Source: a virus. From it: DNA of 64,000 bases. The position numbers and the translations under genes were made by a program. Under the pieces are notes generated by a model. It saw only the letters and a program-made list of their open reading frames with translations. It was not told where the DNA came from and ran no database searches. Positions 1 to 61,710 of this stretch are shown here, piece after piece (position 1 is the stretch's first letter; each line of letters begins with the position of its first letter). The DNA is taken from the IMG/VR virus record IMGVR_UViG_3300030098_001484, positions 3,000-66,999 of that record; one strand, 5' to 3'.

Positions 1-1424
1 GGCTTACCGCCGTATGGAATAATCATCACAGGATTCTTTGCAACTGTGGTAGTGTTAACCACATCCTCATTCTCAAGGAACACCTGACTAAACTCATCGT
101 CTTCCCCTGCTTCCCAAGCACGACGGTTCTCATCACAGATATCTTTCCTGAAGTCGTGAATCTCACCGTTAGGGTTGTTGATAAGGTTTGTACGTCGGGC
201 GTTAACCTCATCCCTAGTAGCAGCCGCAGTGTGCTGAAGGTTTGATGACACTTGGTCAAGCCTAATAGGCAAGTCCCAGTAACCGTCTTCCAAAGCATCA
301 GCATATGCGTCACATGCACTAAAGCATTTGAAAGTACCGGCTCCCTTACCAAAGCCATCCCACCACAGATCATAATGCTTAAGCGGGTCTTCAGCAACAG
401 CAAGGATACGGTCCTTATTGTTGTCAACCCACTCAACACGATGATCGAAGTGAAGTTTGTCCAACTTAACTCCGTCTGCTATAGGCAGTCCAGAACATGA
501 ACTGGCGATACCAACCTTAGCCCAATACCAGTCATCGTCTGTCTTAAGAATCTGTCCGTTAGCAAAACGCAACAAACTAGAAGCCAGATCATTACCTTGC
601 GGTGATAAGACATCGCAATAGTAATACATACGACCACGAAAGTCGATGTAAACAACCAGCCAGAAGGTCCGACCCTGCATCTCAGTAGCCACCTGTAAGG
701 CAACACCATGAGCATACTTATGAATCTCATGTTCATAAGGCAACAGCGTATGCTTAGCCAAAGCTAAGGTACGATCTGAGATAACGTATGGCACGTCTTG
801 TAGACCGTTCATCGCATCACAGATCCCTTGCTTTGTAACATTTTGCCACGTTCCGTGACTTATGCCGTGCCTAAGAGCATCAGTGAGATATCCACCCGGA
901 CGCTCAATAGTATGAGGCACAGGCGGCACAACCATAGGGCGACGATTCATTCCAATCATACCCCAAAGGTCGTGTTCCTCAAGCATGTTCTTAAGTGTGC
1001 TAGTGAGCCTAACAACAGTGGTATCCCCATGCTTAGTGTGGTTAAGGTCGATAAACCCAACCGAACGACAGGCATGTATAAGATTCCAAGATATTGCTAG
1101 TCGATCCTCTCGATCCATGTTAGGTGCTAAAGTTAACAACCTGCGTGACACTTCATTCACTACAGGGTGTGCTTGAGCCGTATCACCTTCCTTGGAGACC
1201 TTATCCAGAGTGGCACATGACGCAATCATTGACACTTCTCTAAGGCCCATCTTAAGGACACGTTTAGCCCACTTAGGAGGCTGACTGAAGCCACTGATCA
1301 AATCCTCCAGCCCTCCCTCAAGTTGGTCAACAATAGGATTAGGGTTAACACCCCTACCCATGATTTCTAACTCAAGGTTGCGCTGTTGGTCTAAAGCAGC
1401 ATCAGTAACAGTAACACATGACAT
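1..1424 (-). CDS. Second, divergent T7-like single-subunit RNA polymerase (3'-truncated by window edge; 474 aa visible)
   Basis: Manual translation from ATG 1424 (RBS AAGGGGA), open to position 1: RPMVVPP..GGYL, IDFRGRMY, SPQGND..LLRFA, DKLHFDHRVEWV, motif A LPIRLDQVSSNLQH, motif B AKNPVMIIPYG. Not in the ORF track. Confidence 0.93.
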   Translation of the reverse strand, partial: MSCVTVTDAALDQQRNLELEIMGRGVNPNPIVDQLEGGLEDLISGFSQPPKWAKRVLKMGLREVSMIASCATLDKVSKEGDTAQAHPVVNEVSRRLLTLAPNMDREDRLAISWNLIHACRSVGFIDLNHTKHGDTTVVRLTSTLKNMLEEHDLWGMIGMNRRPMVVPPVPHTIERPGGYLTDALRHGISHGTWQNVTKQGICDAMNGLQDVPYVISDRTLALAKHTLLPYEHEIHKYAHGVALQVATEMQGRTFWLVVYIDFRGRMYYYCDVLSPQGNDLASSLLRFANGQILKTDDDWYWAKVGIASSCSGLPIADGVKLDKLHFDHRVEWVDNNKDRILAVAEDPLKHYDLWWDGFGKGAGTFKCFSACDAYADALEDGYWDLPIRLDQVSSNLQHTAAATRDEVNARRTNLINNPNGEIHDFRKDICDENRRAWEAGEDDEFSQVFLENEDVVNTTTVAKNPVMIIPYGGK

Positions 1425-1458
1425 AACCAATCCCCTTATTTGAAAGGTTATTTATTAC

Positions 1459-1485
1459 GAGCCTTTTACTGACTTGCTCAGGTCA
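1459..1485 (-). ncRNA. Putative H-type pseudoknot in leader of second RNAP
   Basis: TGACCTGAGCAAGTCAGTAAAAGGCTC: TGAC/GTCA and GAGC/GCTC interleaved pairings. Confidence 0.45.
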
Positions 1486-1502
1486 ATACACAGTGTATTA
1501 AC

Positions 1503-2309
1503 TCAGTCCATGTTGGCTTCAAGAACCGCAGACTTATTAGCAGTCCGGCGACGATTACTCTTGTTAGACCTCAACAGGTGATCTGTATTAGTCCGCTGGT
1601 CGCCACGGTCCTCAACGTAGTTGCCTGAACGAGGGCCACTACCCATCTGAACCCCGTGAGGTTCCAATGCTTCTCTAAGGTTATTCATTGCGTCCTTAAC
1701 CGTTTCCCCAACACCGTACAACCCGACATATTCATGATCGGTGTTATACTTCTTCTTCTTGAAAGTACCGTCCTTCTTACGGATACCTTCACCAATAACC
1801 TCCATCCGATATCCTTCATCGGTCAAGGTTCTGGTAAGTCTGAAACCCTTAACCCAAGGCAACTTCGAAGGCTTAACTTCAGCCTTCTCAGTCTTACTCA
1901 GGTACTCGTTGATTAGGGTCTTACTACGAGTCCGCTTGCCGGGTTCAATACCGCAAACCTTAAGTAGCTCTTGCCTTGACATGGCTTCAAGCTGCTCTTT
2001 GGTAAAGGTCTTACCCTTAGACTTCTTGCCCCCAATCTTGCGAGTCTTCTTCGCAGACTTAGGCTTGTCCTCTGCGGTAACACCACGGTCCTTGGCCTTC
2101 TTGTGCTTATCTTCAAGATCAGCCACGGTATCCTTGGTATCACCAACAATCACACCAAGCCGGGCCAATGCTCTTTGAGTGGTGGCTTTACCATTCAGTT
2201 TCCACCGGCGGTTCAACTCTTTCAGAGCCTTCTTCCGCTTCTTGTCACTCTTATTAGCATAAGCGCAAAGCTCAGCGTTGGACATATAATTCATTGGTTT
2301 CTTACTCAT
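1503..2309 (-). CDS. Lys-rich early protein with HeH/Rho-N-like segment and C-terminal HicB-like segment
   Basis: 268-aa ORF; TKEQLEAMSRQELLKVCGI; GVGETVKDAMNNLREALE. Confidence 0.7.
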   Translation of the reverse strand: MSKKPMNYMSNAELCAYANKSDKKRKKALKELNRRWKLNGKATTQRALARLGVIVGDTKDTVADLEDKHKKAKDRGVTAEDKPKSAKKTRKIGGKKSKGKTFTKEQLEAMSRQELLKVCGIEPGKRTRSKTLINEYLSKTEKAEVKPSKLPWVKGFRLTRTLTDEGYRMEVIGEGIRKKDGTFKKKKYNTDHEYVGLYGVGETVKDAMNNLREALEPHGVQMGSGPRSGNYVEDRGDQRTNTDHLLRSNKSNRRRTANKSAVLEANMD

Positions 2310-2366
2310 GTTACTAACATTCCTTCATTCAAAGGTACATACATCGGGTACGCAACACCATGCTGC

Positions 2367-2449
2367 GTTCCCATTGGCAGAACTCGGCCTACCACGCATG
2401 TATACGTACATGCTTTGATGCCTTGTTCCCATTCGCAGAACTCGGCCTA
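2367..2449. repeat. Tandem 25-bp direct repeat (24/25 identical, period 58)
   Basis: gttcccatt(g/c)gcagaactcggccta at 2367-2391 and 2425-2449, intergenic. Confidence 0.85.
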
Positions 2450-2480
2450 TACATACGTACACATACTACGTTCACGTTCA

Positions 2481-2801: not shown

Positions 2802-2893
2802 TACAGTTCAACTACCTCTTGTAAAATGAGTATGATAAACAAAGTAATAAGGCCCATACTCATGGCACATAATACTAATTCAATTACCCACAT

Positions 2894-3154: not shown

Positions 3155-3167
3155 CTACCTTTCTGCC

Positions 3168-3807: not shown

Positions 3808-3845
3808 AACACAATGCTCCTTACCCATATGGGCAGTTAGGTTAC

Positions 3846-4070: not shown

Positions 4071-4103
4071 TACTCCTTATTTATAATTACCACGATTTGT
4101 GGA

Positions 4104-6050: not shown

Positions 6051-6071
6051 TATACTATTATACCCGGTTAT
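6051..6071 (-). promoter_or_regulatory. Phage promoter motif, copy 1
   Basis: ATAACCGGGTATAATAGTATA, intergenic, 4 copies in window. Confidence 0.85.
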
Positions 6072-6086: not shown

Positions 6087-9000
6087 CTAGGGGTTCTGAG
6101 GGCCGATTTTAAAGAAACTGTCCGGTAATCGAAGATACGTAGGCATCTCATAGATTGACTCGAATACATCAGTTTCCTTCTGCATTTCAAAGAACGGATT
6201 GAAGATAGGCTTCTCGGGTTTCTTGGCAGGGTTCTTATGCAGCGACTGTTGCATATACCGCTGTTTTTCCAAGGGGGTAGTGTTTGGGGTGTTCGATGGA
6301 ATTTTCGGCTGAAGACGCGGTGTAACGTGATCCTCGAAGTTCTGAAGGATAGTTTCTCTCCATACTCTCATAGCTTCGTCTGGCCTATTATTATCAATAT
6401 CTTCTTTCATCATACTTGATAAAGCTAAGGCCAAGATTCTAGCTTGGTCCCGGTCATCAGGATTTACGTGATTAAAGAAGGCATCATTAATGGGAACCCA
6501 CCAGAATGCCTTGGTTGGGAACATGGCTTGATACAACAGATTGAAAGCATCACTAGCCTGAGCATCTCGCTCTCCAGACTTTAGGTCTCCCATTGTAGCA
6601 ATCCAGTCTTCCATGCCTACAGCTTTTGTAGCTTTGGTTCTGCCTTTTGTTAAGAAGTTGCCCTTACCCATACCTACCATTGCATTTGAGATCATCTTAA
6701 ATACGCCGGATGCTGGCATTTCTAGCGGATTGCTTCCATACGCAGGTTCACCTAACATTGGATTTACAACAGGTAAGACCGCCAGTTCTCTTACTATCTT
6801 ACTCCCCCATCCTAATACCGGAGCATGAGAACCCTTCTGGAATAGTTTAGCCCACCCATTTTCTTTCCATTCGGTTGCAATTTCTTCTGCTGATTTCTTA
6901 CCGGACTGAAGCTCCCTAACTTGCATATGTAACATCTCTAATGAAACAATACCTGCAATTAGAGCTAAGGCTTTTATGGCTCCTACTTCAGATGGATTCT
7001 TTTTCATATAAACATTAAAGAACGCTAAAGGATAAGTAGCATAGAAAGAGAATAATCTACCAAACCAATTCTTATTAAAGTGAGAATAAGAGGCTAATCC
7101 TCTCGGTTCTGGGGAAGCATCGTGAGCGTGCATTTCAATAAAGTTAATAAAACGATCAAACACATCCGTATACAGGTCTCTTTCTAACTTCCCAAACTGA
7201 TAATCAACGGAGTTCATTCGTTCAAACATAAGCGATTGATCCCAATTTGATTGGGTTGCTTCGCCCCATGTAAGAAGCTTTCTAACCATTGGCATCACAT
7301 CTAGTCCACTGTCATCAACAACAAGCCCAGCCCTAAACCATCTCATCGCCATTTCATAGCTTAGTCCTTCTTTTCTAGCTAAGCCTTTAATGTATCGTCG
7401 TTTTGCTTTAGCGTCCGTTAGCGATTTAAATTTAATAGGATCAAATGCTAGATTAAACGCTTCAAGTTTATCTAAATTCTTAAGAGTATTATACTTAGCA
7501 TTACCAACCGCAATATTCTTAGTTAGGTTTATGACTTGGCGTAAGAACGTAAACTCTGATTGCATTTTAGCCGTGGCCTCTAAGAAATTATTAAGTTTTT
7601 CCATAGCTCCGTCTGTAGCGGTATACTTTCTATCTTTACTCCACATTAATTTCCAAAGGGATCTAATTCGATTACTCCATTTAATATCGTACTCTACTCG
7701 ATCATCATTCATAAACTTAGCTAAGCCAGATCTTTCAATGTTATCGAACATAAAGGCAGTACCCTCAAGATTGGTATTTAAGTTAGATGAAGATCTTGGG
7801 ATTCCCTTAAAGGCTGTACCTAAAGCATTCATTAACGCTCCAGCACTTCCTGATCTAGCAATAATAGCAAACGGTAATTCAACTAAAGCAACTGCTTGTG
7901 AAATACCGCTTCCAAAAATAGCCTGAGCAAGATTGTTCATTGCTTTTACTGCTGTATCAAATTTGATGTTTGCATCATATACAGGCGTTCCAATCATTTC
8001 CTTATAAAGCATTTCCATAAAATCGACAGTTTCTTCGAGTGCTTTTTTAGTGGCGTGATCAGCAATTTTCTTACCCTTTGGTCCGGCTATCTCGGTTAAG
8101 CTTGCAACCCTATCTCGCATTAAAGAAAAGACATCTTCAAACCGTAGGTTCTTAAGTTGTTCTCCGGTAAATGGAGAAGCAATTGCCATTGTTTGAAGCC
8201 AATGATTTAATACATCTTGTGCATTAATTCTAGTTGCAGTAGTATTAGCGTAGTCCATAATAATCCGGTCCCACGACCAATCAAATTCTTTTAAGAATTC
8301 AGGATTATTTGCTAATTCTTCAGCAGAGAACACCCTTTCTTTTGATCCCATATTCGGTTGACCTATTTCATTTATGTACCTACGTTCTGCTCCAGCAACG
8401 TCTTGTCCAGCCTTAGAACCAGCAGCTTCGTGGTTTCTTCGCCTAGCCCAATTAATCATAGCTTCGTGTAATGCGGTTCGTTCTGGATTAATTCTTGCCC
8501 CCTTGGTATTTACATAATAACTAGTATCACCACCATAAGAAGCTTCTATTTTATCTCCAATAGAAATTGAATCCTCTGCTCCGCTATATTCAGCATTTAA
8601 GTTTTCTTCGCTAAATGTTTTAAATATTTCTGGCTTAGCCATAATAGGTTTAGTAGTATCAGGAGCTATAGCCTTAGCAGAAGTTTTTAACTCTTCAGGA
8701 GAGAACACTTGAATTTTACGACTCTTAGGTTTAAATACATTTGGTTCTCTTATTACAGAGATATCCAGAGCAGTCTTTGTCATAAATGGAGAACCTTCTT
8801 CAGTACCTACTCTAAATTGATTAGGTCCAAGCTTTTCTTGTAATTCATTAATAACCGCTGCTTCTCTTTGTTTAAGTTCTTTATATCGTTCAATGGATTC
8901 TTTATATAGCTGCCTCATTTTAAGAGTACGGGCTTGCATAGCCGAGTCTTGTTTAATAGGATTTCTTTCAACTGTAATTTGAGGATCCATCCACTGATCT

Positions 9001-12000
9001 TCAGCAGGCAATGTTTTATGAAGGTTTTCAATATCCCAAACTTCTTGCTTAATTGCTTGTAGCTCTTTAGCTAATGTTATGCTCTCAATAACAATTGGAG
9101 AATCCTTTTGAGATCTTAGTTCTGCTATACGTGCATTGTAATCAGCTAACAGATAACCGGGAGACTTTAAACTCCACTCTCCCTTGGTATGATCCCACTG
9201 CTCTCTACCTTTCTTTTTACCCGCTTGTTTGACAACCTCTTGCTTTTTAGCTTCTAAGTAAGCAATCTTTTCATCAATTGTTTTATTCTTAACTTCAGGT
9301 GTTGGCTCAACTTTAGTAATTGTAATACCATGTAGTTCTTCTGCTCGTTCCCGACCTCTAGTTGTTAATCTCCAACCTCGTGCTGAACGATCATATTCAA
9401 TGAAGCCGGTCTTTTTTAAGTGCTGGAATAAATTGTTTTGATAAGAAGCTACATTTTTTCCAATATCATCGCTGTAAGTCTTTGGAGCAAAACGACTTAT
9501 AGCTGGAATATCTTGTTTGGTAACGGGCTGAAAACTAGGATCAGCACTAACTAACGGCCTAATTTCCCCGAAGAATTGTTTAATAAAGTCAGCTTTAGTA
9601 AAGGTTGCATTTGTAGGATGGATTCTAAACCACTCAATAATATTTTTTTCTAGTGCCGTTTGAGGCTGGAATAATAAAGGCTTAGCAGGAACAAATACTT
9701 TTTTATCTTGATACTGTGTTAAGTTATCTAAAGCTTTCTTTAAGATACGTCTCTTATACATTAGAAGATTTCGAGTATAGTAATTACCTGTAGTAAATTC
9801 TTTTTTAAACGCCGGAACTCTATTATCGTTTGCGTAATTTTTAGAGAACCAATTAATTTTATTTACCATAGATGCAGAATCTCCAATATATCTCATTTGA
9901 GGTTCCATGAGTTGTTTATCTACAGTATTAAGTTCCTTAAGTAAAGAATCAAAAGGATTATCTACAAATCGGACAACTCCCTCAACAAACGTAGAATAAG
10001 CCTCCGCATAATTCTTGTAATGTCCTTGTAATAAAGATTCGGTTTCTTTCATGGTTTCGAACATAACTAAAGCTCTAAAGTTACCGATCATTGTGTCTTC
10101 TACAATATCATTAACTTGCTGCTCAGTTAGTTCTTTATATTTTGGATTCTTCTTTTTCTTTTCAGCTTCTTCTTTTAAAAGTCTCTTTCTAATTTGTTCA
10201 GCAGATTCGCTTACAGAATCAATCATTCTTGTTAAAGTAGAGTAAGTTCCTTTAATATTTTTAATTACGTCTCTTTCGATTGCCCCTATTGTTAGGTGCG
10301 TAGCAAAGGTTACATATTCTACCTCTTTACCGTAATGACCGCCCTTACTGGTTGGCATATCATATGGTAACAATAGTTGCTTTTCAAGCTCTGCTAAACT
10401 TGAAATTGGCTTAACAAAAGTATAACCATCGTTTTCGTTTAAAGCTCTGTTTACCGATATCTTAGTAAACTTAGTTGGTCCTCCATCGGCTGCTCTTGGT
10501 TTCCACTCAGGATATAAAGGAATAATATCCTGAATGGGCTTAATAATTTTTACTCCCTCCCATTTAATGCTCTTTCCAAAAATACTATTTAAAGAAATTG
10601 CTCGTCTTCTAGACGGGAGGTTTAATTTAGATTCTCGTAATTCACTTTCATATATCGCTTCTCGTAATCGCTGAATCCAACGATTAATGTTTTCCCTTAG
10701 AACCCGTACCTCTTGATCTCTATGCACAGGGCGGGAAATTCCAGTACGTCCGTCAGTTTTCATAGTTGTAGTATATAAATATTGCTTATTAATGGGTCTA
10801 TTAATAGAATCAAAATAACCAATTGCAGATGTATCTCCAGACTTAGCAATCTGTTCTTGAACATAGTTTGCATGCCAGTTCACAAGTTTTCTAACATCAA
10901 TTTCCTGTTCTTGTTTTAACTCTGCTCTACGTTGCTGTATGTCTTCGGCCCTAAACTTAAAGAAACTGTTAGGATTATCTTTCCATTTATTAGCACTTTC
11001 GTCCCACATGGCAGCGTCGGCATCGCCTTCAACAAGTAACTTAACCAAAAGATTAATTGAACGTCTTTCGTTTCGTTCTGCTGCACTTATACCTTTTTCA
11101 GTGGGATCAAAGAAATCTACTAACATTTTATTTAGACTTTGCCGTAACTCGTCATTTATCATCCTGTCTTCAGGACGCTCAGTTCGACTAGTCATTCGTG
11201 GCCTATCGGACACAGACATTCCTAATCTTTCGGCTTCTTCTGGGCTGATGCTAGATATTTTGCCCCTACCTATTTCAGAAGATCGTTTTCTTTTTCGGAA
11301 GGTTTCTTTGTATCCTGCCGCAACAGCGTACATAAAGCGACCTAATGGTACTTCTGAGTTGGCTCCAACACCGCCAAAGGTTTTGTCTTCTGACTTAAGC
11401 CTTCGAATTTTTCTCCACTTACCGTCCTCTCCCTTTTGTAATTTATGTGTAAACATTTCTCTACTAGCTCGGTGTAAAGCCATAGAGTCTTTAAATCCTA
11501 TAGAACTTGATAGTGGAAACTCTTTTATTAACTCTTCGGTTGTTAAGTCAATAAGCTTCTTAGGCTTACCTTTTTCATTCTTAACAATTTCTGATGTAGC
11601 CTTTTCAAACTGATCTTCAGTTAAATACCATAAACGCTTTAAGGCTGTAGGTTTACTGGTTGCTAACCAGAACAACTCTTCGAATACATCATCAAGTAAA
11701 TCTGCATCTACATCATGTCCTGCGGCTAACTCAGCACGGATAATAGAACTAATGCGTTGTTTAATGGCATATTCAATTCCCGGTTCGGTTTCCCATTCTT
11801 GTAAACCATACTTATCAGTTCTGCCCTTTTTACCCACAGCTTTTACTTTAGTTGCGTTTCTATTATATAAGAAGAATAAATCGCCAACAGTCATTGTTTC
11901 TTTGTTCTCAGCACCCGGAACAAAGTTGTAAAACTTATCATAAATATCGGCTTCATGCTTTGCTTCTTTAGCTTCTTTAGCTGCTATTTCTTTTTCAAGT

Positions 12001-15000
12001 GCTTTCTTTCGTAGTATTCGTTTTCTCTTACCGCCAAGATTAGCTGCCATTGCGGCTTGGTGCATGGTTAATTCAGCCGCTTCAGCTAGATGGAACTTTC
12101 CTGTTGTATCAAAACCAAATACGGAACCTTCGCCATCCAAGAGGTTTCTAAGCATTTCCAATCTTTTAATTTCCCAACGAAGCATTTCAATTTTTGGATG
12201 ATTAGGATCATTGATTCCAAGCTTTGTTCGTTTTTCATGTAAGGAATTTAATAGTTTTTGAAGTTCTTGTTGATACGCTCGACGGTTAGGATCTACAAAC
12301 TTTTCTATTTCAATTAAAGTAACAATTTTATTCCACTGTCTTTCAATAGCTTTGGCCTTACCTTCAATAGGTTTGGCCCAATCCTTTTGAGCTATTTTAC
12401 CGGGCTTTAATTGTTCCTTTCGTGTAATAGGAGAAATCCATCCTAAGTAAGATTCCATAACTTTAATCATTTTCTTAGCATTTTTTTGGATAGCAGGATG
12501 AGGAAGCTCAGCTTGTTTTTTATAAAACTCTAAAGTATTGCGTAATCTGGTTTCATTAATTAAAGTTGAATCGCCCTTTAATTTTAAAAGGTGTGGAGGA
12601 CCGTCTGTTAATTGAAGGATGCTAGGTAACATCTCTGCTTTCTTTTGTCTAACTTCCTTCCACAGTTTAACTCGTTGATCAACCACTGCTTTAAAGTCTC
12701 CGTCTCCGGTTAATAAAGCATACTCTTGCATCATAGTAAAGTATTCGTCTATATATGTTTTAACTTCTACTTCAACATCTTTAGATATAGTAAAGCGTCC
12801 TCGGCTTACATCACTTATTTCTTCTAAGATTCTCATTTCTTGATAGTTAAGGGCTGTTAGTTCTGCTTGGGTAGCTGTAGCATCTACGGCACTAGGCTGT
12901 TCAGTCCTAATAGCAGAATCTTCTAAGCTTTCTAGCTCTCTCTTGTGTTGTATAATTCTTTCGTCTAAATTAGCAACTGTTTTTGTAGCTAATGCTTGTG
13001 CTTCTTTAGCCTTTAATTGAGCTTGCTTTTTACCCATTGCTTTGTATTCTTTCTTAGAAATACCAAGAATTTTTCGAACTTGTTTCTTCGTAAGATCTGC
13101 TTCTTGTTTTTCGTGGGGTAACTCTGCAAGTACAGCATCAATGGTTTCATCTGTCTGTACAATTTCTATAGACGAATCATTGGGCTGATCTATTTCAGCT
13201 ACATCTTCAGGCTTGTCTACTTTCTGTTTCTTATATCCAATTGTAGGACCACGACGATAGACTTCATTTAAGTCTACATCAGTATCCCTTTCGTTTCTTA
13301 GCATAATATCATCAAGATTATCCCAAACCATGTCTGTTTCTAAGTCTGCTTTATATCCATCAATTTCGCCTTGAATATTGTCAGACCAAGCTGAAAACGG
13401 TTTATTATCTTTAGATGAATAATTACCATGCCAGATATCAATAAATGGATATCTTTCTTTAATTGCTCGTTCAATTGCAAGTCTAGTTATTCTTTGCTCT
13501 GGTTTGTTTTCCATAGCTGCATTTAAACTTGCATCAACCATAGCTTTTTTAATGGAGCCTATATCCGTTAGGATTTGCTGAGTAATGGTTTCTCCTCCTA
13601 CGGATACCCATCCCTCCGACAACCACGTTTGCATCTTTAGATTCCACTCTTCTGCATCATTAGCTTTCATCTCATTCCATTTTTTATTAACTTCTACTTC
13701 CTTACGATATTCTAAGAACAGTTCATTTCTTTCATCAAGGTCGAAGTAATTATGGTCTGGATAATATTTTTCAAGCCAGCTTTTGAAATGAGGAGAATCT
13801 GCGCCAGCTTCTGCTATAGCTTGTGTTAAGGCTTCATAATCTTCTGCTGAAGGATCGCCTGTTTTGTTTACTACATTTCTCCAACTTCTAAAATCTATAT
13901 TTGCTTCTAACTCAGAGTTGGCTGCAACCGCCTTTAAAACATTTCGTCGATTGTAATCAGCCGCTTCTTTAATGGCTTCTCGAATTAAATGCACAACAAT
14001 TTTAGAAACATCAAAATTATTAGCAGCACCTTCCGACACAATCTGTTTAAGCATGGCGTTGTTGTTAACAAAATTGATAATATCTAGAATAGATAAGCCA
14101 TTGTTTATAAACTCTTGTTCATTAATTCCCAACTCTCTTCGACCAACTTTTCTGCCAGTAAGAGCTTCTACTGTATCAAAGAGATGCTGCTCACCTACAG
14201 CATAAAAGTCTTGTTCGGGGAACAGAGGATCTGGTTTATCTAGGTTTTTAGTAAACATTTCACCAATGTTTTCACCTTGTTCTCGACCAGTAAATGGTGT
14301 AACTGTGGTTATTTCGTCTATTGGAATAGGTTTTTCTAATCCCTCAACCTTAATACTAATGATTGTTGGCTCAGGAATTAATCCTTGTTCTACGTCGTTT
14401 GCGGCTTCTCTCAGAGTAGTAGCTAATTCTAAGTTTCCTTCAGCTTCGTATCTATCCGCTGATGTGCGCATGTCATCAATGTTTCTAGTGGTAGCATAAT
14501 CAGCGTTTTCGACAATACGTGCGTTTTCAAACAAAGGATTGTCTACATTGTGGATTACAACAGAACCAACATCAATAGGTTTATCAGGAGTTTCAACAAA
14601 ACCGGGAAACTCTAACCTATCGTGTGATACCTTTACGTTGGCTTTTACTGGGTTTCCATTAATTTCTAGTACATTGCCCTTGTGTTTAATTCCCGGCTCA
14701 ATAATATACGTAACTCTTGGTTCTCCTGAATCAGATAAATTCTTTGGAAATACTCTATTTCTTTCTGAAACAGACATTAACTCAGGATCAAACCTATCAC
14801 CAACATTATCTATGAGTTCCATTTCATTCTTTGCTAAAAACTCATCTAATCTTTTTTGAATTTTTTCTTGTAGCTCTAACTCTAATGCTGCAAGAGTTTC
14901 GGTTTTTACCTTATTTTCAGGGGTTTTTGACTTAATTTTTTCTATGGCTTCAAGTTGGTTTCTTCTAATATTCCATAGAATCATAGCCGCAGTTCGCGTA

Positions 15001-18000
15001 TCTTCTAAACTAAATCGTCCTTCTCCATCAATAGGTTCTAGCCTATCAAAGTATTCATTAGCTGTCTTTTTTCTTCTTTCTAAGGTTTCAACAATAGGCG
15101 TAATAGGATCTACTTTTTGTTCTTTGATTAACGATAGTGGAGCGTCTTCTTTAGCAACAACAGGTAAACCTTTATTTTGTCGTTTATTATCTGCTGCTGC
15201 TTGAAGGGTACGTAAATCATCAGTTGTAAATCCGGTTTGATTATGATAATCCCACACCTGCTTTGACAGAGTAGCTTGGTTTATATCAGGACTATAGAAA
15301 ATAGATCCTTCAGGAATACCGCTAATACCTACTACAGAACCTTTCTCAGTTAATAAAGAAACATGACCGATTGCTTCAAGCTCAACAATAGAAACAAATC
15401 CTGATTCTAAATAACTGTTTGCTTTAATGTGGTTGCCTGCTGTTCCTAAGCTAATTACAGATTCAGGGTTATCGTTGATCATACTCTGAGATAATGGCAC
15501 ATATCCTTCAGGATTACTGCTTTTAGTAAGCTGATTAGTGTCTACACCTCTTTGATAGTTTCTCATTAAGTAATCATCAATTTGAATAAAGACATCAGTA
15601 AAGTGTTGAGCAATAAGCTCCACATCTAAATGATCTATATTTCCCATTTCATTACCTAAAGCTTCTCTAACCCATTCTTTTATATTAGCTCTCTTAATTT
15701 TGTTTACTCTAGCTAATGCTATTAATTCTTCAAAGACCGGGAAAACTTCTTCCGGTAAGGCTTCTTTAGCTCTGTGTAAACGGGCCACAACAATCGAAGC
15801 TTCTCGTTTAGCTTTTTGTTTTGCGTGCCAAACACTTTGGTTTCGCCCTGTTGCGTTTAGATCATCAACTAAAAATTCGTGGGTATTATCTAAAATTCTA
15901 CCTAATGTTCTTAGTTCATATAAGGTAGAATAATAGACATCTGATTTACTAGAGCCTAGCTCAGCAACGGCAGAAACCATTCTGGTCAACTTAGAGCGTC
16001 GTAAAGCCTCGTCTAATACTTCAGCATTTTTAGCGTGGTTTCCTGTAGGATCTTGCATTCGCTTAAGGAGAGCAGAAAGAACTTCTTTACGTAGTTCTTG
16101 GCCTTCCATTGTTTCGTCTTGTATTCTCTTAACAAGCTTAGCGTCTGCTTCGTCTTGTAAAGCTTTCCTGCTTTTTGTGCTTTTTCTAGGATATGCTTTA
16201 TCCATTTCTTGTATCGCACTATCAACTAGTTTGTTTTGAGCGACAATCTCACTCATAGGAGTATCTCTAGTTTCTAAAAGCTTTAAGTTTTCAACTGCAT
16301 CAAACAACTTAACTAACTCAGGTGTTGTGTAAGTATAGTCTCTAAATCTTAAACTAGGTGCTAAGTCTTCAGGGAACTTAGGAAAAGCTTCTCCACCATT
16401 TCCTTTTTCTAAAAAGTTAACTAAATCAGCTTCAGTTCGTTTGAATTTACGATAAGCCTCTCGAAACTTTTTACTGTCTACGCCATGCTTTTCTTTCATC
16501 TTTTCCGCTGTAGCTCTACGATTGTTTAATTTAGTTGTTAAGTTATTGTATCTTGTCCACGATTCTCTAGCTGCCACATCTGTAGGAGCAGCAGTATTAA
16601 AATCTCTTGGCTTTGGAGTCGGAGATCGCAAGGAATCAACTTCGCTTACGGGTTTTAATAACCCTCTTTCTTCCATTGCGTGTTTTCCATCGGCGGTATT
16701 TCTAGCCTTTCTTTCAGCAGAAGACGCAATCTTATTACCGTTTTGCTTTTTCTTTAATTTAATAAAGGCCATAACTTCTTTTTCGATAACTTCACGATTT
16801 ACTTTATGACCACCAGAACGATAGTGTATATCTTTTAACAAGTTTGCAATTTCGTTTAAGGTAGAATGATGGCCTTCAATTAAGTTTCTATCTAAGAATC
16901 TAGCAAAAGCTTCTCCTTCTCCTCCAGTCATATGATCTACAAAAGAAGATACCGTAATCATACCATCTTCCCAACCCATATGAGAAACCAATCCTTCAAA
17001 GGTTCCGTCCATTGGAGAATCTGTAGATATTCCCGCCATATGTTTTAACTGATTTTGAACCCAATGAGGATGGTTAAAGCCTATTTTCTTAGCGTCTTTT
17101 ATTCCCTTAAAGATTTGACCTCCGAGAAACCCATCCATAAAACCAGTCATAGCAAAACCAAATCCACCCATTGTTCCCATTGTAAAAGCTAATTCGCCCA
17201 AACTAAAACTATAATCGTGATTTCCTAGGCCATTTATAAAGTCTAATCTTTGTCTAGCATCTTCTTGTTGACGTAAGTTCATTCCTAAACCATACGCTGC
17301 ACCCCAACCAGCACCAACAGCGGAGCGTCCAGCTAATCCACCTAAAGTTTTAGCACCCTTCATAAAGGCTAAAACTTCTAAAGTTTCTCCGACTGCGACC
17401 ATTGGATAACCCAGCATTTTATTTATAAATGCTTGTGATTTAATTTGTGTATTAGTTAAAGTTGCTAATCGAGAATCCTTAACAAACCTAGCTCCCCAGA
17501 CTCCTTGTTTAGTATTAAACAAAGTGGGTATTAATGAACCGTCTGCCATTAAAGCTTTAGTATCTTTTAAACTTAAAGCAACATCGTCTCCTGTTTTAGA
17601 AATACCAGAAGCCGGTCCCTTCCAACCCTTAGTTCTTGTAGCCCGAGTTGCAACTAATTGCCACTGATTTTTAGGATTACCAAATCCACCCCACAAACGA
17701 GGATTTAATTTTCTTCTTAAGGGTACGCCCATATGGCGACGAACTCCTTGGGTAACAAACTTTCCAGATGTTTGGGCTAAATCTATTACTTCTCCGGTGG
17801 TTCTATGAATTAATCTTGGATTAACGTACTGACCTTTTTGAGCGGCTTGAAGAAATTTACTTAGTCTAGCGGTTTGTTCTGTGCTTTTTAATAAAGCTTG
17901 TCCACCCGTTTTGGTTACTGCACCTACTCCCGCTAATCCGAAAGTTAAGGGAATAGTAGCATAAAGCTCCCAATCCATTCCCATATCAAATATCATATCT

Positions 18001-29090: not shown

Positions 29091-29111
29091 TATACTATTA
29101 TACCCGGTTAT
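29091..29111 (-). promoter_or_regulatory. Phage promoter motif, copy 2
   Basis: ATAACCGGGTATAATAGTATA directly followed by AGGAG RBS. Confidence 0.85.
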
Positions 29112-49292: not shown

Positions 49293-49313
49293 TATACTAT
49301 TATACCCGGTTAT
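49293..49313 (-). promoter_or_regulatory. Phage promoter motif, copy 3
   Basis: ATAACCGGGTATAATAGTATA upstream of dUTPase. Confidence 0.85.
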
Positions 49314-58959: not shown

Positions 58960-59242
58960 GTTCTTGTCCCCTTCTAAGAGTTGACATTTCAATTATAATG
59001 TTACGAGGAATACTATGGACGGTTCCAGTATTATCCTCCCCTACAGTATCTGTTATAGCTACATACTCATCTGTCTCATGTAACACATAACCTATATTTT
59101 TAATTTTAGGTAACGGTTCATGAGCATATTCGTATGCGTCTTCTAATGATACCCACTCAGGACCACCCTGAGAATGAGCATCTACCCAAACGATTTCTCT
59201 TACTTCAAGCGAAGAGATAATCAGATTCGAGAACTCTCTCAA
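58937..59242 (-). CDS. Conserved small phage protein
   Basis: IVWVDA..W..IGYVLHE..IP family pattern; probable TTG start inside the RNAP 3' end. Confidence 0.6.
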   Translation of the reverse strand: MREFSNLIISSLEVREIVWVDAHSQGGPEWVSLEDAYEYAHEPLPKIKNIGYVLHETDEYVAITDTVGEDNTGTVHSIPRNIIIEMSTLRRGQEHDNEGNR

Positions 59243-61664
59243 TTCTGAAGTCACCTCTCCGGGGCAGTTCGGGCAATCGCAAGTTGAGTTCGTTCTCAAT
59301 GTCTTCCTTGAGTCGTTGCAGTTGGTTTTCCTGATGCATCTCATAGAATTCCTCCCTTATCAGTGGGACCAGTAGATCCATGTCCGGTGCAGGACAACCA
59401 TAAGAATCATGCACCATAGAAAATTGGTATATGCCAAGCATTATGGCTCGCCAAACAGTACAAAACATATGACTTGCATCAAGACTATGAATCCAGTTAG
59501 GAGAAATAGCCTGCATCACAGCCTTACGATCTACCTCGGTCTGACTGTGCGTTGCAAATATTAATTCTTTCTTATTAAATAACTCAGCAAAACTACGTCG
59601 CTTTGTGGGCTTAAAGTAAGCATGAACAACACGGAACCCAGAAGGAACGGTGTAAGTTATATGTTCATTTAAGTTAGCGGTTATTTCGCCAAGTTGTTTT
59701 AGATATTCTTTACCTCGGTTAGGCATCTCAAGAGCCTCGTCTAGCCCTACCTTAATAGCTCGGGCCAACTCTGTAATAGCAGCATTACGAGTATCTTTAG
59801 GAACCCAATCTAAATGTCCCTCAGATTTAAGATACTTCTGTATCCCATAGAAGGTTAAGCCATAAGCATCACACATAGTACTACGCTTAGTAACACTTCT
59901 AGGAATGTTGGCCTTCCAGTGGTTTAAGAACTTTATATAAAACTCATTATCCAACTGATTGGTATTGCAGTATGTAGTTACGGCATCTGCTACCGATTGG
60001 TACAGATCTTCAGGACTTAAATTAGCATCAACATTAGTTAACTTAGCGTTCTTCTCATCTCGCATAATAGCTGACCAATGTTGTGTACCATTGCAGGCTC
60101 CGTCCACTTGAACAGGAACCTGAGTCATTCCATCTTCTCTAAAGTAATCAAAGATTGCTGCGAGTCGTTGGAACGATGGGTTTTTCTTTACTTTATCTGA
60201 GATCCACCCACGATTATCATAAGGATTCTCACTTATACGCCGTAACATTTCGACGTTATCATCAAACCATTGTTCTCTTTGATCAAACGAAAACTTATCT
60301 TGGTCAAATAGATTTGCTATGTGTCTCTTCATCCATATTCGACCACGTTCTGTTTGCTTCCGTGCTTCTGCAAACTGAATTAAACCCACATCAAGATCAG
60401 AACCTTGACAAGATAACAATTCACAGGCGGTATACGCTCGTCCTCTAAAGTCTAAAGTATAAACCATATAGAAGAAAGAAAACTTAGCCATCTCTTTAGC
60501 TAAATTTAAACGAACTAACAAGCGACACCTATGTTGTTCAGATTTAAACCAACTAGCCCAATACTCTTCTCTAGCTACACACCACTTCGCTTGTTCTTCT
60601 TTAGATCCTTCTTCAGGATAAGGTTCATTATGCATAAACTCTTCTAAAGAATAAGCGGGAAGGTTGGCAAGTTGAGTATTATTTAAGAAGAAGTTTTCCA
60701 TAACTTCTAATACACGTTTATTGATAGACCATTCAGTTCGCATCTTAGCATTTAAACCATCCAAAACTAACTGACTAGGCTGTGAAAAACTCTGGGGCTT
60801 TAAATAACCTTCTTCGTAATCTGAATTATATCGTTGAACAACTTCTTTTCTAGCCCATGTATTTAAGTAACCACCGCTGGCCTGTAATGTATGATCAACC
60901 GGCGGAACAATCATCGGTCTAAATAATAAGTTACTAGTCTCTAATGCTGCATGTTTAGAGTGAAGATCCTGTAAGATATCAGGACGCAAGGTAACAAATA
61001 ATTTCTTTTTCCAAACCTTACCACCAGAATATCTTTGGTTAATCATTTGAAATATACCTGACCTCTCAGCTATACGTATCATATGATGACCAAAATCTTG
61101 GCGGTGCTTCAAAGGTAATTTATTTAACTTACCTACTTTCTTAGCAAAAGCCTTACATCTTTTTTCTGTCCAGCTTTTTATAAACTTAGACTGCTTTCTC
61201 CAGTCATTCCTAAAGTCAACCTTAGATTGTTGATAAGCTATGATAGCAAAAGAATCTTGGGCAATTATGTTGGCTAGTTTCTGTGCAGTAGGTAATGGAT
61301 AAGAAACATTTAAGAAACCAGAGAATTCTTTTTCCTTAAACATTGAGGCATGAAGCCACTCACGCATAAAGCATCTTAGCGTCAGGTCCGCCATCTTAGG
61401 CGCACCCAACGCTAAGAGCGGCAGCAACCATTTGGGGGTCTTATGATTGCTACATATCTTATCTATCCATTCCTGATAAAAAGGGGTGAGATGGACTACC
61501 GTAGCATCCAATAACTGCTGCTCCGGTAGCCCCTCATCTGGTGATCTCTCGTAATCTTTCCAGTAACGGGCCACACCACCCGATATCATCTCCTCTTCCA
61601 TGAGATTTTGGGTAGCTGTACGTTCGTTCTGCTCTGCTTCAGAGAGGTTGTCCCATAGTATCAT
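59205..61664 (-). CDS. T7-like DNA-directed RNA polymerase (gp1-like)
   Basis: PMIVPP, DFRGRAY, DGACNGTQH, RSVTKRSTMCDAYG, PNWIHSLDASH, HDSYG, YLFA C-terminus. Confidence 0.98.
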   Translation of the reverse strand: MILWDNLSEAEQNERTATQNLMEEEMISGGVARYWKDYERSPDEGLPEQQLLDATVVHLTPFYQEWIDKICSNHKTPKWLLPLLALGAPKMADLTLRCFMREWLHASMFKEKEFSGFLNVSYPLPTAQKLANIIAQDSFAIIAYQQSKVDFRNDWRKQSKFIKSWTEKRCKAFAKKVGKLNKLPLKHRQDFGHHMIRIAERSGIFQMINQRYSGGKVWKKKLFVTLRPDILQDLHSKHAALETSNLLFRPMIVPPVDHTLQASGGYLNTWARKEVVQRYNSDYEEGYLKPQSFSQPSQLVLDGLNAKMRTEWSINKRVLEVMENFFLNNTQLANLPAYSLEEFMHNEPYPEEGSKEEQAKWCVAREEYWASWFKSEQHRCRLLVRLNLAKEMAKFSFFYMVYTLDFRGRAYTACELLSCQGSDLDVGLIQFAEARKQTERGRIWMKRHIANLFDQDKFSFDQREQWFDDNVEMLRRISENPYDNRGWISDKVKKNPSFQRLAAIFDYFREDGMTQVPVQVDGACNGTQHWSAIMRDEKNAKLTNVDANLSPEDLYQSVADAVTTYCNTNQLDNEFYIKFLNHWKANIPRSVTKRSTMCDAYGLTFYGIQKYLKSEGHLDWVPKDTRNAAITELARAIKVGLDEALEMPNRGKEYLKQLGEITANLNEHITYTVPSGFRVVHAYFKPTKRRSFAELFNKKELIFATHSQTEVDRKAVMQAISPNWIHSLDASHMFCTVWRAIMLGIYQFSMVHDSYGCPAPDMDLLVPLIREEFYEMHQENQLQRLKEDIENELNLRLPELPRRGDFRIERVLESDYLFA

Positions 61665-61689: not shown

Positions 61690-61710
61690 TATACTACTAT
61701 ACCCGGTTAT
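61690..61710 (-). promoter_or_regulatory. Phage promoter motif, copy 4 (one mismatch), upstream of RNAP
   Basis: ATAACCGGGTATAGTAGTATA. Confidence 0.8.

What the first reader, a model, noticed from the sequence alone, without database searches (positions are those of the whole stretch)
1..1424. Hidden second T7-type RNA polymerase: a two-RNAP autographivirus
Seen: an unlisted minus-strand ORF open to the window edge with RNAP motifs in the correct order, in addition to the canonical 819-aa RNAP at 59205-61664. Shared features (PPKW..L..G vs TPKW..L..G; RPMVVPPVPHT..GGYL vs RPMIVPPVDHT..GGYL) suggest the two are paralogs. Known: T7-like phages normally encode one RNAP, while N4-like phages use several in a cascade. 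Inference: a staged transcription system with an early RNAP near the genome entry end, or a specialised paralog. Rare two-RNAP podoviruses may already be described and should be checked.
Basis: partly seen in the sequence, partly recalled or inferred. Interest (0 to 1): 0.92.

Follow-up and report, generated by a model that had tools for sequence, protein, structure and literature searches.

The report
Second, minimal RNA polymerase in phage
This marine T7-like phage really does carry a second, smaller RNA polymerase gene, but such two-polymerase phages are already in print, and what is new here is only a testable guess about which DNA signals each enzyme reads.

Summary
The ORF at window 1-1424 (-) is the first two thirds of an intact 708-aa single-subunit RNA polymerase, RNAP2. 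The whole 66,999-bp virus record supplies the missing part, with motif C (IHDC) and the C-terminus, and no stop or frameshift. It is not a chimera: seven lineages carry a short RNAP 4-6.5 kb upstream of the canonical RNAP1 on one strand.

RNAP2 is not a recent duplicate of RNAP1. The two are 27% identical and an AU test rejects a joint clade. RNAP2 belongs to a deep lineage of about 700-aa enzymes. They keep the catalytic residues, the promoter-binding domain and the specificity loop, but lack T7 subdomain H and half the thumb.

The phenomenon is already published. Marine group AG-10.1 (Commun Biol 2025) has large genomes, a giant protein and an extra RNAP upstream of the usual one. Alteromonas phage H4/4 (2017) also has two RNAPs.

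- Two promoter-like motif classes. Class II occurs only in genomes with an RNAP2-clade gene, as a tandem pair before a conserved operon of protein X and RNAP2.
- Weak predicted binding between X and RNAP2.

Function is inferred, not shown.

The parts
1..1424 (-). RNAP2 gene, N-terminal 474 of 708 codons. The remaining 702 nt lie left of the window (record bases 2297-2999). Start is the ATG at 1424-1422 with AAGGGGA upstream.
1503..2309 (-). Gene X, 268 aa, no known family, immediately upstream of RNAP2. Homologues sit at the same place in 5 of 6 RNAP2-clade lineages. Candidate RNAP2 partner.
2360..2449 (-). Tandem pair of class II promoter-like elements (2360-2391 and 2418-2449). The coding strand reads TAGGCCGAGTTCTGC[G/C]AATGGGAAC. 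A third copy lies outside the window at record base about 1500.
6051..6071 (-). Class I promoter-like 21-mer (coding strand ATAACCGGGTATAATAGTATA), 15 nt after the stop of the 4219-aa gene.
29091..29111 (-). Class I 21-mer, exact copy. AGGAG and an ATG follow directly.
49293..49313 (-). Class I 21-mer, exact copy, ahead of the 144-aa gene and the ribonucleotide reductase gene.
61690..61710 (-). Class I 21-mer with one mismatch; its last base lies 25 nt upstream of the RNAP1 start codon.
59205..61664 (-). RNAP1, the canonical 819-aa T7-type RNAP, followed by primase/helicase, DNA polymerase and exonuclease genes.
6087..18746 (-). Giant 4219-aa ORF (context). It marks the AG-10.1 type of genome. 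No Pfam domain was found.

Best explanation
Window 1-1424 (-) is the larger part of an intact gene for a second single-subunit, T7-type RNA polymerase (RNAP2, 708 aa). The genome is a 67-kb marine T7-like podovirus of the kind published as Autographiviridae group AG-10.1.

Shown:
- The gene is whole.
- It is conserved at 25-60% identity in an uncultured lineage.
- It keeps the catalytic residues and a confidently predicted T7 RNAP fold.
- It always lies on the same strand, 4-6.5 kb upstream of the canonical RNAP1, in a hypervariable block of small genes.

Inferred:
- RNAP2 is an active, promoter-specific polymerase of minimal build. It lacks subdomain H and has half a thumb, but keeps the promoter-binding domain, the intercalating-hairpin region and the specificity loop.
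- It reads its own promoter class (class II: GATA..TTCTGCSAAT|GGGAA in this genome, ..CCTACCAAWA|GAGG in relatives).
- From class II it would drive its own two-gene operon (X and RNAP2, from a tandem pair). It would also drive the block just downstream: a pistol ribozyme, a tRNA-Arg and small genes running towards RNAP1.
- RNAP1 would read class I (CCnWATAACCGGGTATA|RTAGTA), which has four copies that between them head every block of the genome, including RNAP1's own gene and the block that holds RNAP2. The two enzymes could then switch each other on.
- X may be a cofactor of RNAP2.

My odds for the separate steps: a real, intact second RNAP gene 0.97; an active polymerase 0.8; class II being RNAP2's promoter 0.45.
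For: Gene and family:
- PF00940 hits at E 2.5e-15 for the window part and 4.7e-30 for the whole ORF, with no internal stops.
- Aligned with T7, these residues are invariant in the 6 sequences of alignment A2: D421, R423, G424, R425, D471, K472, D537, Q544, K631, Y639, G640, H784, D787, H811 and D812.
- D392, K465, Y473, G474, H650 and D651 of RNAP2 are invariant in 12 family members down to 25% identity.
- AlphaFold2 gives pLDDT 93.5 and pTM 0.92. The Foldseek top hits are T7 RNAP: 3e2e_A at E 3.7e-29, and the promoter complex 1cez_A at TMq 0.77.
- Residues falling in T7 segments for RNAP2: subdomain H 7 of 54, thumb 42 of 86, specificity loop 31 of 30, promoter-binding parts 70 of 80 and 55 of 61.

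Lineage:
- Seven 90%-identity clusters, the window's own among them, score E 1e-163 or better. The next hit scores 7.5e-30.
- There are 6 full-length representatives of 675-751 aa at the 50%-identity level.
- The tree has a clade of 11 rows at SH-aLRT 99.

Synteny:
- A short RNAP lies upstream of RNAP1 on one strand in G000, G001-3, G004, G005, G008, L137 and L139, which is 7 lineages. Two complete relatives, G006 and G007, have only RNAP1.

Class II motif:
- AGTTCTNCNAANGGG has 3 copies in G000 and 3 in G003, at syntenic places. All 6 are on the coding strand. There are 0 in the other 5 records searched.
- The two window copies were matched against a chance expectation of 0.16.
- CTRCSAAWRGRG gave 9 hits, all 9 on the coding strand, in G003, L136, L137 and L139. 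It gave 0 in the four records without an RNAP2-clade gene (G005-G008, 251,332 bases).
- Tandem pairs 54-64 nt apart lie 23-90 nt upstream of X in G000, G003, L136, L137, L139 and, as a variant, G004.
- Within each genome the upstream part is identical between copies. The part after ..AAW(R)G varies but stays purine-rich, as expected around a start site.

Class I motif:
- Three exact copies of the 21-mer and a fourth with one mismatch, all on the coding strand.
- 20 of 21 bases are kept in G001-3 although the proteins are only 60-78% identical.
- Variants matching ATARYYGGGT gave 12 hits, 11 on the coding strand, at the same two places: before RNAP1 and just after the giant gene. This holds in G005 and G008, whose second RNAPs are unrelated to RNAP2. 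L137 matches the same pattern before its RNAP1, and L139 has a close variant (AGAAACGGGTATAGTAGTA) at both places that does not fit the pattern.
- The TATAAT inside the motif is not kept in G005 or G008.

Protein X:
- Homologues lie directly upstream of RNAP2 in 5 of 6 RNAP2-clade lineages.
- Complex prediction gave weak support: ipSAE 0.55 (runs 0.55, 0.59, 0.54) against a best control of 0.00 from 3 controls.
- The mark was reached by 58 of 80 solved complexes and 2 of 110 mismatched pairs. At 0.60 or under it was reached by only 7 of those 80 and by both mismatches that passed.
- The runs agree in at least 39% of contacts and the partner's pLDDT is at least 65. My own alignments were used, so the calibration counts hold only roughly.
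Against: - No transcript, start site or enzyme activity was seen. Every functional step is inference.
- The O-helix arginine (T7 R627) is T, A or S in the window's subclade (4 of 7 sequences in alignment A1), although it is R in more distant members.
- Both glycines of motif A (T7 G538 and G542) are replaced, so catalysis could be weakened or altered.
- Class II co-occurs with X as well as with RNAP2, so it could equally be X's operator.
- Class II has only 3 copies in this genome.
- Class I cannot be tied to RNAP1 by presence and absence, because every genome has RNAP1. The pattern was also not found in G004, G006 or G007.
- G007, a complete genome whose RNAP1 is 86% identical to that of G004, has no second RNAP. 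The gene is therefore dispensable for this kind of phage.
- The X-RNAP2 score lies in the band that the tool calls more often wrong than right unless the guess was likely beforehand.
- G004's protein at the X position shows no significant likeness to X (hhalign probability 5.6%).
- The physical genome ends are unknown, so 'early' and 'late' are not established.
Confidence: 0.6

Rival explanations
1. RNAP2 is an active polymerase, but the class II elements are operators for protein X, a small basic protein that autoregulates the X-RNAP2 operon. RNAP2's true promoters are something else, or it depends on a factor rather than on a fixed DNA sequence, as N4 RNAPII does.
For: - X and RNAP2 co-occur with class II in the same lineages, so the co-occurrence does not separate them.
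- Tandem sites just upstream of a regulator's own gene are a common operator layout (established knowledge).
- X is lysine- and arginine-rich.
- RNAP2 shares with N4 RNAPII the loss of subdomain H and a short thumb.
Against: - The elements are asymmetric. They have a strictly kept 5' part and a variable purine-rich 3' part, unlike a dimer's palindromic site.
- All copies are on the coding strand and 23-90 nt ahead of a gene or an RNA block.
- RNAP2 keeps a full-length specificity loop (31 residues against 18 in N4 RNAPII) and the promoter-binding parts.
- X has no recognisable DNA-binding family.
Confidence: 0.2
2. RNAP2 is not a general transcriptase. Either it is a decaying or regulatory copy, or it makes short RNAs only, for example primers at an origin as T7 RNAP and mitochondrial RNAP can.
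For: - R627 is lost in the window's subclade, and G538 and G542 are replaced.
- Half the thumb is missing. From recall of T7 thumb-deletion work, not read here, this lowers processivity.
- The gene is absent from complete relatives G006 and G007.
Against: - D537, D812, K631, Y639, G640 and H811 equivalents are invariant, and H784 nearly so (11 of 12), over 12 sequences down to 25% identity. This argues for selection on catalysis.
- The reading frame is intact in every lineage seen.
- The phage has its own T7-type primase/helicase (phrog_239, E 3.8e-160).
Confidence: 0.12
3. RNAP2 is packed in the virion and injected, acting as the first polymerase in the way N4 vRNAP does.
For: Its block follows the giant late genes on the same strand. 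N4 is a precedent (abstract of PMC4496689 as listed).
Against: - There is no evidence for packaging.
- A promoter-like element and about ten small genes separate RNAP2 from the giant genes.
- In the isolate H4/4 the short RNAP is the third gene from the left end, an ordinary early position.
Confidence: 0.04
4. Assembly artefact: the region left of about 5.5 kb is a chimeric join from another phage.
For: The record's 99-base end repeat equals a common assembler word length (my recall). The ends are therefore probably an assembly overlap, not physical termini.
Against: - The same order (giant gene, class I motif, small genes, X, RNAP2, RNA genes, small genes, class I motif, RNAP1) lies on one linear contig of a 60%-identical relative (L004).
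- Further lineages show the same order.
- One 50,608-base contig covers window 1-12000 with 2 differences and no joint, though that run may be the source.
Confidence: 0.01

Closest known systems
Marine uncultivated Autographiviridae group AG-10.1 (Commun Biol 2025, PMC12361551; passages read)
   Same: - Marine origin.
- A genome much larger than other T7-like phages.
- A giant ORF: the paper gives 3274-5566 aa, and here it is 4219 aa.
- An additional, shorter RNAP downstream of the giant gene and upstream of the typical ~800-aa RNAP, among small unknown genes.
- The additional RNAP has limited identity to other RNAPs and forms a separate group in the tree.
   Different: - Nothing differs at the level the paper describes.
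- The paper gives about 650 aa for the extra RNAP; here it is 708 aa.
- The paper's main text does not contain the words promoter or ribozyme (0 occurrences each).
- I could not check whether this very record is in their list, because the supplements are closed.
Alteromonas phage vB_AspP-H4/4 (Foturvirus; NC_047834; Genome Announc 2017, PMC5658483, passage read)
   Same: A cultured T7-like podovirus annotated with two single-subunit RNAPs on one strand. One is short (gp3, 708 aa) and is the third gene from the left end. The other is long (gp29, 796 aa).
   Different: - The genome is 47.6 kb.
- No giant ORF is annotated in the first 26 kb that I read.
- The long RNAP sits between the DNA-metabolism and structural genes.
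- gp3 is nearest to P0067 (44% identity over the whole of P0067). The P0065-67 clade is separate from RNAP2's clade in the tree, in which gp3 itself was not a row.
Phage N4 RNAPII (gp15 plus gp16) and the N4 three-polymerase cascade
   Same: - A small T7-type polymerase without subdomain H and with a short thumb.
- A phage that uses more than one polymerase in sequence (abstract of PMC4496689 as listed).
   Different: - N4 RNAPII is split into two genes of 269 and 404 aa. RNAP2 is one ORF.
- The N4 specificity loop aligns to 18 residues, against 31 in RNAP2.
- No N4-type virion RNAP was detected here: the six-frame PF00940 scan found only the two genes, and the giant ORFs have no Pfam hit.
- N4 RNAPII grouped only with the very long branch of G005_R2, a join the tree tool itself flags as unreliable.
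T7 RNA polymerase
   Same: The fold, the catalytic residues, a specificity-loop hairpin, and the architecture of the candidate promoters: about 17-20 conserved bases followed by a purine start.
   Different: - 24% identity.
- 175 residues shorter.
- No subdomain H and half the thumb.
- R627, G538 and G542 are replaced.
- Extra segments GLPIADGVK and GDKTWHNFG.

Membership tests
Single-subunit (T7-type) DNA-dependent RNA polymerase, Pfam PF00940 | Match to the family profile above the curated cut-off | tested here: met
   56.7 bits for the window part and 98.8 bits for the whole ORF, against a cut-off of 22.
Single-subunit (T7-type) DNA-dependent RNA polymerase, Pfam PF00940 | The two catalytic aspartates (T7 D537 in motif A, D812 in motif C) and H811 | tested here: met
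   LDQVSSNLQH and IHDCGG. These residues are invariant in 12 family members.
Single-subunit (T7-type) DNA-dependent RNA polymerase, Pfam PF00940 | O-helix residues of motif B (T7 R627, K631, Y639, G640) | tested here: inconclusive
   K, Y and G are invariant. R627 is T in the window's protein and A or S in its 3 nearest relatives, but R in more distant members.
Single-subunit (T7-type) DNA-dependent RNA polymerase, Pfam PF00940 | T7 RNAP fold | tested here: met
   AlphaFold2 pLDDT 93.5. Foldseek top hits are T7 RNAP chains at E about 1e-29, with TMq 0.77 to 1cez_A.
Single-subunit (T7-type) DNA-dependent RNA polymerase, Pfam PF00940 | Full T7-like N-terminal domain and thumb | tested here: not met
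   Subdomain H has 7 of 54 aligned residues and the thumb 42 of 86. The promoter-binding parts and the specificity loop are kept. This is a feature of T7 itself, not of the whole family.
Single-subunit (T7-type) DNA-dependent RNA polymerase, Pfam PF00940 | Template-dependent RNA synthesis from a specific promoter | not testable with these tools
   No RNA run holds the sequence. An enzyme assay is needed.
AG-10.1 marine Autographiviridae with an additional RNAP (PMC12361551) | T7-like core genes in T7-like order | tested here: met
   The order is RNAP1, primase/helicase, DNA polymerase, exonuclease, portal-type adaptor, scaffold, major head protein, two tail tube proteins, fibres and large terminase.
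AG-10.1 marine Autographiviridae with an additional RNAP (PMC12361551) | Large genome with one giant ORF of 3274-5566 aa | tested here: met
   66,999 bases and a 4219-aa ORF. Relatives have ORFs of 3580-5473 aa.
AG-10.1 marine Autographiviridae with an additional RNAP (PMC12361551) | Additional shorter RNAP downstream of the giant gene and upstream of the typical RNAP, among small unknown genes | tested here: met
AG-10.1 marine Autographiviridae with an additional RNAP (PMC12361551) | Marine origin | tested here: met
   9 of the 10 runs listed as holding the stretch are labelled marine metagenome; the tenth has no label.
AG-10.1 marine Autographiviridae with an additional RNAP (PMC12361551) | No SSB gene and no integrase | not tested
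   Only 20 of about 60 ORFs were scanned against PHROGs. None of those was an SSB or an integrase.
AG-10.1 marine Autographiviridae with an additional RNAP (PMC12361551) | Placement in the authors' core-gene tree or member list | not testable with these tools
N4 RNAPII-type polymerase | Two-subunit enzyme encoded by adjacent genes | tested here: not met
   One uninterrupted ORF in every lineage. N4 gp15 and gp16 are separate genes.
N4 RNAPII-type polymerase | Reduced specificity loop and dependence on an ssDNA-binding cofactor | tested here: inconclusive
   The loop is full length (31 against 18 aligned residues). Dependence on a cofactor cannot be tested here. X is a candidate partner with only weak predicted binding.

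The most novel reading that the evidence does not exclude
These phages carry a self-contained two-polymerase circuit.
- A minimal 708-aa polymerase lacks subdomain H and has half a thumb. It has its own roughly 22-nt promoter class and a dedicated, conserved partner protein X.
- This polymerase autoactivates from a tandem promoter pair. It also transcribes a block of self-cleaving ribozyme, tRNA and accessory genes that runs into the gene of the main polymerase.
- The main polymerase's promoter in turn heads the block that holds the minimal enzyme.

If true, this would be a natural pair of orthogonal polymerase and promoter sets, wired for mutual activation, in one T7-like genome.
Probability: 0.35. 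Interest if true: 0.65.

Novelty: already known. Interest (0 to 1): 0.4.

Why it matters
T7-type polymerases are workhorses of biotechnology, and the T7 programme (host polymerase first, then one phage polymerase) is the textbook model.

That some marine T7-like phages carry two such enzymes is already published, but only as gene maps. Nobody has said what the second enzyme reads or why it is there.

It gives two short candidate promoters, one per enzyme. It also gives a compact 708-aa polymerase that keeps its promoter-reading parts, and a candidate partner protein.

If the assignments hold, they would give a new orthogonal polymerase and promoter pair. They would also give a first view of how a T7-like phage splits its transcription between two of its own enzymes.

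If they fail, the finding remains a correct but already described annotation.

Tried and rejected
- **The look-up of encoding contigs.** It was closed, so the 66-68-kb contigs behind P0006-P0008 could not be fetched by that route. As the tool's message advised, I went on with the search for related loci, the genome search and the fetch from genomes. These reached the same lineages as L137 and L139.
- **RNA evidence.** No RNA holder is listed. All 10 runs are contigs, so no starts, ends or physical termini could be read. X9 and X10 cover only parts of window 1-12000.
- **Sigma-70 scans.** They gave 9 promoter-like sites against 7.8 +/- 2.7 expected in record bases 1-3100, and 7 against 10.8 +/- 3.1 in window 1-6500. 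There is no signal, so host promoters are not located.
- **The 847-nt gap as genome terminus.** I first took the ORF-free gap downstream of RNAP2 for the physical end of the genome. It instead holds conserved RNA genes, so I dropped that idea. The physical ends remain unknown.
- **Hairpin reading of class II.** The 5' arm GTTCT or TTCCT can pair with GGAAC or AGGAA in some copies. The 3' arm differs between copies within one genome (L137: AGGAA, AGAAA, AGAAC). I rejected a conserved hairpin in favour of a start-site boundary.
- **Looser class II patterns.** They give stray hits. GTTCTNNNAANGGG gave one hit in G006 on the coding strand. CYRCSAAWRGRG gave one in G004 and one in G006. The 8-mer CCTACCAA occurs by chance in most records.
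- **Stappia phage SI01.** It was the best cultured hit to RNAP2 at 26.5%. It has a single ordinary 796-aa RNAP, so it is not a two-RNAP phage.
- **Protein X.** No PHROG family, no Pfam family at E 0.01 or better, and no usable Atlas hit. G004's 252-aa ORF at the same place is not demonstrably homologous (hhalign probability 5.6%).
- **Giant ORFs.** No Pfam domain, so a third, virion-type RNAP is neither shown nor excluded.
- **Tree building.** The first tree run with the mixture model did not finish. The tree used is the quick LG+G4 one.
- **Literature searches on two-RNAP T7-like phages.** These were. In the held library I found no experimental study of either polymerase of such a phage. I did not see the supplements of PMC12361551, which list the genomes and group members.
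Full report
**1. The observation**

The window is bases 3000-66999 of a 66,999-base virus record whose two ends repeat 99 bases. All but four of the 62 greedy ORF calls lie on the minus strand.

In the full record it runs to a stop, giving 710 aa from TTG. The database's own gene call is 708 aa from the ATG at window 1424, which has AAGGGGA six bases upstream.

Pfam PF00940 matches the window part (E 2.5e-15) and the whole ORF (E 4.7e-30, profile positions 17-366 of 448, no stops). A six-frame scan of the record finds exactly two RNAP genes.

The part beyond the window carries PNFVHFLD, IHDCGG and a C-terminal tail of the usual length.

**2. Not an artefact**

Three fragments of a relative (G001-G003, RNAP2 60% identical) carry both genes on the same strand of one linear contig. 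In L004 the order is:
- end of the giant gene;
- 21-nt motif;
- small genes;
- a 272-aa gene;
- RNAP2;
- small genes and a tRNA;
- a 337-aa gene;
- 21-nt motif;
- RNAP1.

This is exactly the order obtained by joining the two ends of the window's record. The same short-upstream-of-long layout is found in G004, G005, G008, L137 and L139. A 50,608-base contig of one run covers window 1-12000 with two differences and no joint, though that run may be the source of the record.

**3. What kind of genome**

PHROG hits give the T7 order:
- RNAP1, primase/helicase, DNA polymerase and exonuclease;
- ribonucleotide reductase;
- portal-type adaptor, scaffold and major head protein;
- two tail-tube proteins and fibres;
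- large terminase.

ORFs of 407, 272, 2023 and 4219 aa then follow without gaps. The two giant ORFs have no Pfam domain. The runs that hold the DNA are marine metagenomes.

**4. Anatomy of RNAP2**

Alignment with T7 RNAP shows these residues kept: D421, R423, G424, R425, D471, K472, D537, Q544, K631, Y639, G640, H784, D787, H811 and D812. Their RNAP2 equivalents are invariant, or nearly so, in 12 family members down to 25% identity.

Three things are unusual:
- T7 R627 is T here and A or S in the three nearest relatives, yet R in more distant members.
- Both glycines of motif A are replaced (LDQVSSNLQH).
- There are short extra segments.

AlphaFold2 gives a confident model (pLDDT 93.5, pTM 0.92). 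Its best structural matches are T7 RNAP chains. The highest TM-score, 0.77, is to the T7 promoter complex.

Counting residues that align to T7 segments, RNAP2 has:
- 7 of 54 in subdomain H;
- 42 of 86 in the thumb;
- 70 of 80 and 55 of 61 in the two promoter-binding parts;
- 31 of 30 in the specificity loop.

It is therefore a stripped-down enzyme that keeps what T7 RNAP uses to read a promoter. That a short thumb lowers processivity is my recollection of T7 deletion work, not something I read here.

**5. Where RNAP2 comes from**

Against cultured phages the best identity is 26.5%. In the large protein sets there is a tight family:
- Seven 90%-identity clusters, the window's own among them, have E values of 1e-163 or better, then a jump to 7.5e-30.
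- There are six full-length representatives of 675-751 aa.

In a 64-row tree (LG+G4, SH-aLRT) RNAP2 sits in a clade of 11 rows (99), inside a group of 15 (95). RNAP1 and its orthologues form a clade of 7 (100) nested among ordinary T7-like enzymes.

Forcing the two clades together costs 174.9 log-likelihood units (AU p 0.00045). The group was defined after the tree was seen.

RNAP2 is thus not a local duplicate of RNAP1. The second RNAPs of G005 and G008 are not in RNAP2's clade at all (17-24% identical to it and to each other). Two complete relatives, G006 and G007, have none, even though G007's RNAP1 is 86% identical to that of G004, which has one. The slot is conserved; its occupant is exchangeable and dispensable.

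**6. Already in print**

A 2025 survey of marine Autographiviridae (PMC12361551; passages read) describes group AG-10.1 as follows:
- markedly larger genomes;
- a 3274-5566-aa ORF in every member;
- in 23 members an additional RNAP of about 650 aa, downstream of the giant gene and upstream of the typical RNAP, among small unknown genes;
- an extra RNAP that is distant from other RNAPs and suggested to come by transfer.

A further 17 members of group AG-14 have an extra RNAP elsewhere in the genome. The window's genome fits every feature I could test.

Earlier still, the isolate Alteromonas phage H4/4 was announced with 'two DNA-dependent RNA polymerases' (PMC5658483). Its record shows a 708-aa RNAP as the third gene from the left end and a 796-aa RNAP further on. 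Several Vibrio and Alteromonas phage records likewise show two matching places.

My literature searches found no experimental work on either enzyme of such a phage. The 2025 paper's main text contains neither 'promoter' nor 'ribozyme'.

**7. Two promoter-like motif classes**

- It has three exact copies and one with a single mismatch, at window 6071, 29111, 49313 and 61710 (5' base on the minus strand). The three copies inside the gene array are followed within 0-14 nt by a ribosome-binding site; the copy at 6071 is followed by an ATG after 7 nt, with no AGGAG.
- It is kept at 20 of 21 bases in G001-3.
- Variants (ATARYYGGGT plus flanks) occur in G005 and G008. Of 12 hits, 11 are on the coding strand. 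L137 matches the same pattern, and L139 has a close variant that does not fit it.
- The variants recur at the same two places: 30-60 nt before RNAP1, and 0-365 nt after the giant gene.
- The embedded TATAAT is not conserved in G005 or G008, which argues against a plain sigma-70 promoter.
- The motif persists in genomes whose second RNAPs are unrelated, so I assign it to RNAP1. No genome lacks RNAP1, so there is no negative control. G004, G006 and G007 did not match the pattern.

- It has a third copy outside the window (record base about 1500), and three copies at the same three places in G003.
- Each genome has its own version, shared by all its copies.
- More distant RNAP2-clade phages show the same layout with a related core (..TYCTACCAAWRGRG). 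A tandem pair 54-64 nt apart lies just upstream of the gene before RNAP2. One copy lies 200-420 nt after RNAP2. L137 and L139 have further copies beyond RNAP1.
- Neither strict pattern occurs in the 251,332 bases of G005-G008, which lack an RNAP2-clade gene.
- The conserved part ends at an A/T-rich stretch followed by G-rich, purine-rich, copy-specific sequence (AAT|GGGAAC here). This is how T7-type promoters look around +1.

I therefore propose class II as RNAP2's promoter. It would drive RNAP2's own operon and the block downstream of it.

**8. The operon partner**

The gene directly upstream of RNAP2 (X, 268 aa, window 1503-2309) has homologues at the same place in G003, L136, L137 and L139 (24-39% identity to the window's X). 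G004 has an ORF of the same size there without demonstrable homology. X matches no PHROG, Pfam or Atlas family.

A complex prediction of X with RNAP2 gave weak support:
- ipSAE was 0.55 (runs 0.55, 0.59, 0.54), against 0.00 for the best of three controls.
- The runs agreed in at least 39% of contacts, and the partner's pLDDT was at least 65.
- The calibration says the mark was reached by 58 of 80 solved complexes and 2 of 110 mismatches.
- Scores of 0.60 or less came from only 7 of those 80, and from both mismatches that passed.
- My own alignments were used, so these counts hold only roughly.

I treat X as a candidate cofactor, no more.

**9. Proposed working model (inferred)**

Class I elements head four blocks that together cover the genome, including the block that contains X and RNAP2, and RNAP1's own gene. 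Class II elements head X-RNAP2 and the RNA and small-gene block that runs into RNAP1.

On a genome transcribed in one direction, this wiring would let each enzyme boost itself and the other. RNAP2 would serve the hypervariable accessory region.

Which enzyme is made first depends on the physical ends and on host promoters, and neither could be determined.

**10. Verdict**

The 'two-RNAP autographivirus' reading is right. 'Paralogs by duplication' is not supported, and the novelty claim falls to two papers. The remaining value lies in the motif-to-enzyme assignments and the X partner, which are cheap to test.

Noticed in passing
L114:575-1273 (record bases left of the window, 1.7-2.4 kb before its first base); same block in L004:12960-13821: The 847-nt ORF-free gap downstream of RNAP2 holds three RNA features on the coding strand. 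There is a Pistol self-cleaving ribozyme (42.4 bits, gathering score 34.5), and a second one in the 60% relative (42.9 bits). There is a tRNA-Arg(TCT). There is also a sub-threshold manA-like match (26.8 bits against 55.2). About 180 nt around the ribozyme are roughly 93% identical between the two phages, far above the protein identities.
   Followed up: partly
L123:16683-18892 (record G008): Just upstream of this relative's unrelated second RNAP lie three type II hammerhead ribozymes about 320 nt apart (53-56 bits, gathering score 37) and a Pistol ribozyme (44.7 bits). Self-cleaving ribozymes recur beside the second polymerase in this phage group.
   Followed up: partly
G007 (whole record) compared with G004: A complete 66-kb relative with end repeats has no second RNAP, although its RNAP1 is 86% identical to that of G004, which has one. 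The second polymerase is gained or lost between close relatives.
   Followed up: partly
window 56340-56490 (-): tRNA-Met(CAT) and tRNA-Leu(TAA) genes lie side by side. The same pair is in the 60% relative (L004:21495-21731).
   Followed up: yes
window 1485-1499 (-): A perfect 15-nt palindrome, AATACACTGTGTATT, lies in the 78-nt spacer between gene X and RNAP2. It could be a regulator site or a small hairpin.
   Followed up: no
window 1-6500: Terminator-like hairpins followed by a T run are enriched in the small-gene block: 12 found against 4.5 +/- 2.1 in shuffles, and 10 of the 12 are on the coding strand.
   Followed up: no
record ends (record bases 1-99 and 66901-66999; the latter is window 63902-64000): The 99-base end repeat lies inside an ORF-bearing stretch and equals a common assembler word length (my recall). 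It probably marks a circular assembly rather than the physical terminal repeat, so the true genome ends are unknown.
   Followed up: partly
window 61762-62769 (-): The 335-aa gene directly upstream of the class I element and RNAP1 is the only gene of the early region conserved in all six other records compared (39-50% identity). It matches phrog_1221, which has no known function.
   Followed up: partly
window 6087-24817 (-): The 4219-aa and 2023-aa ORFs follow the terminase and lysis-like genes without gaps and have no Pfam or PHROG match. Every relative examined has a 3580-5473-aa ORF at this place.
   Followed up: partly
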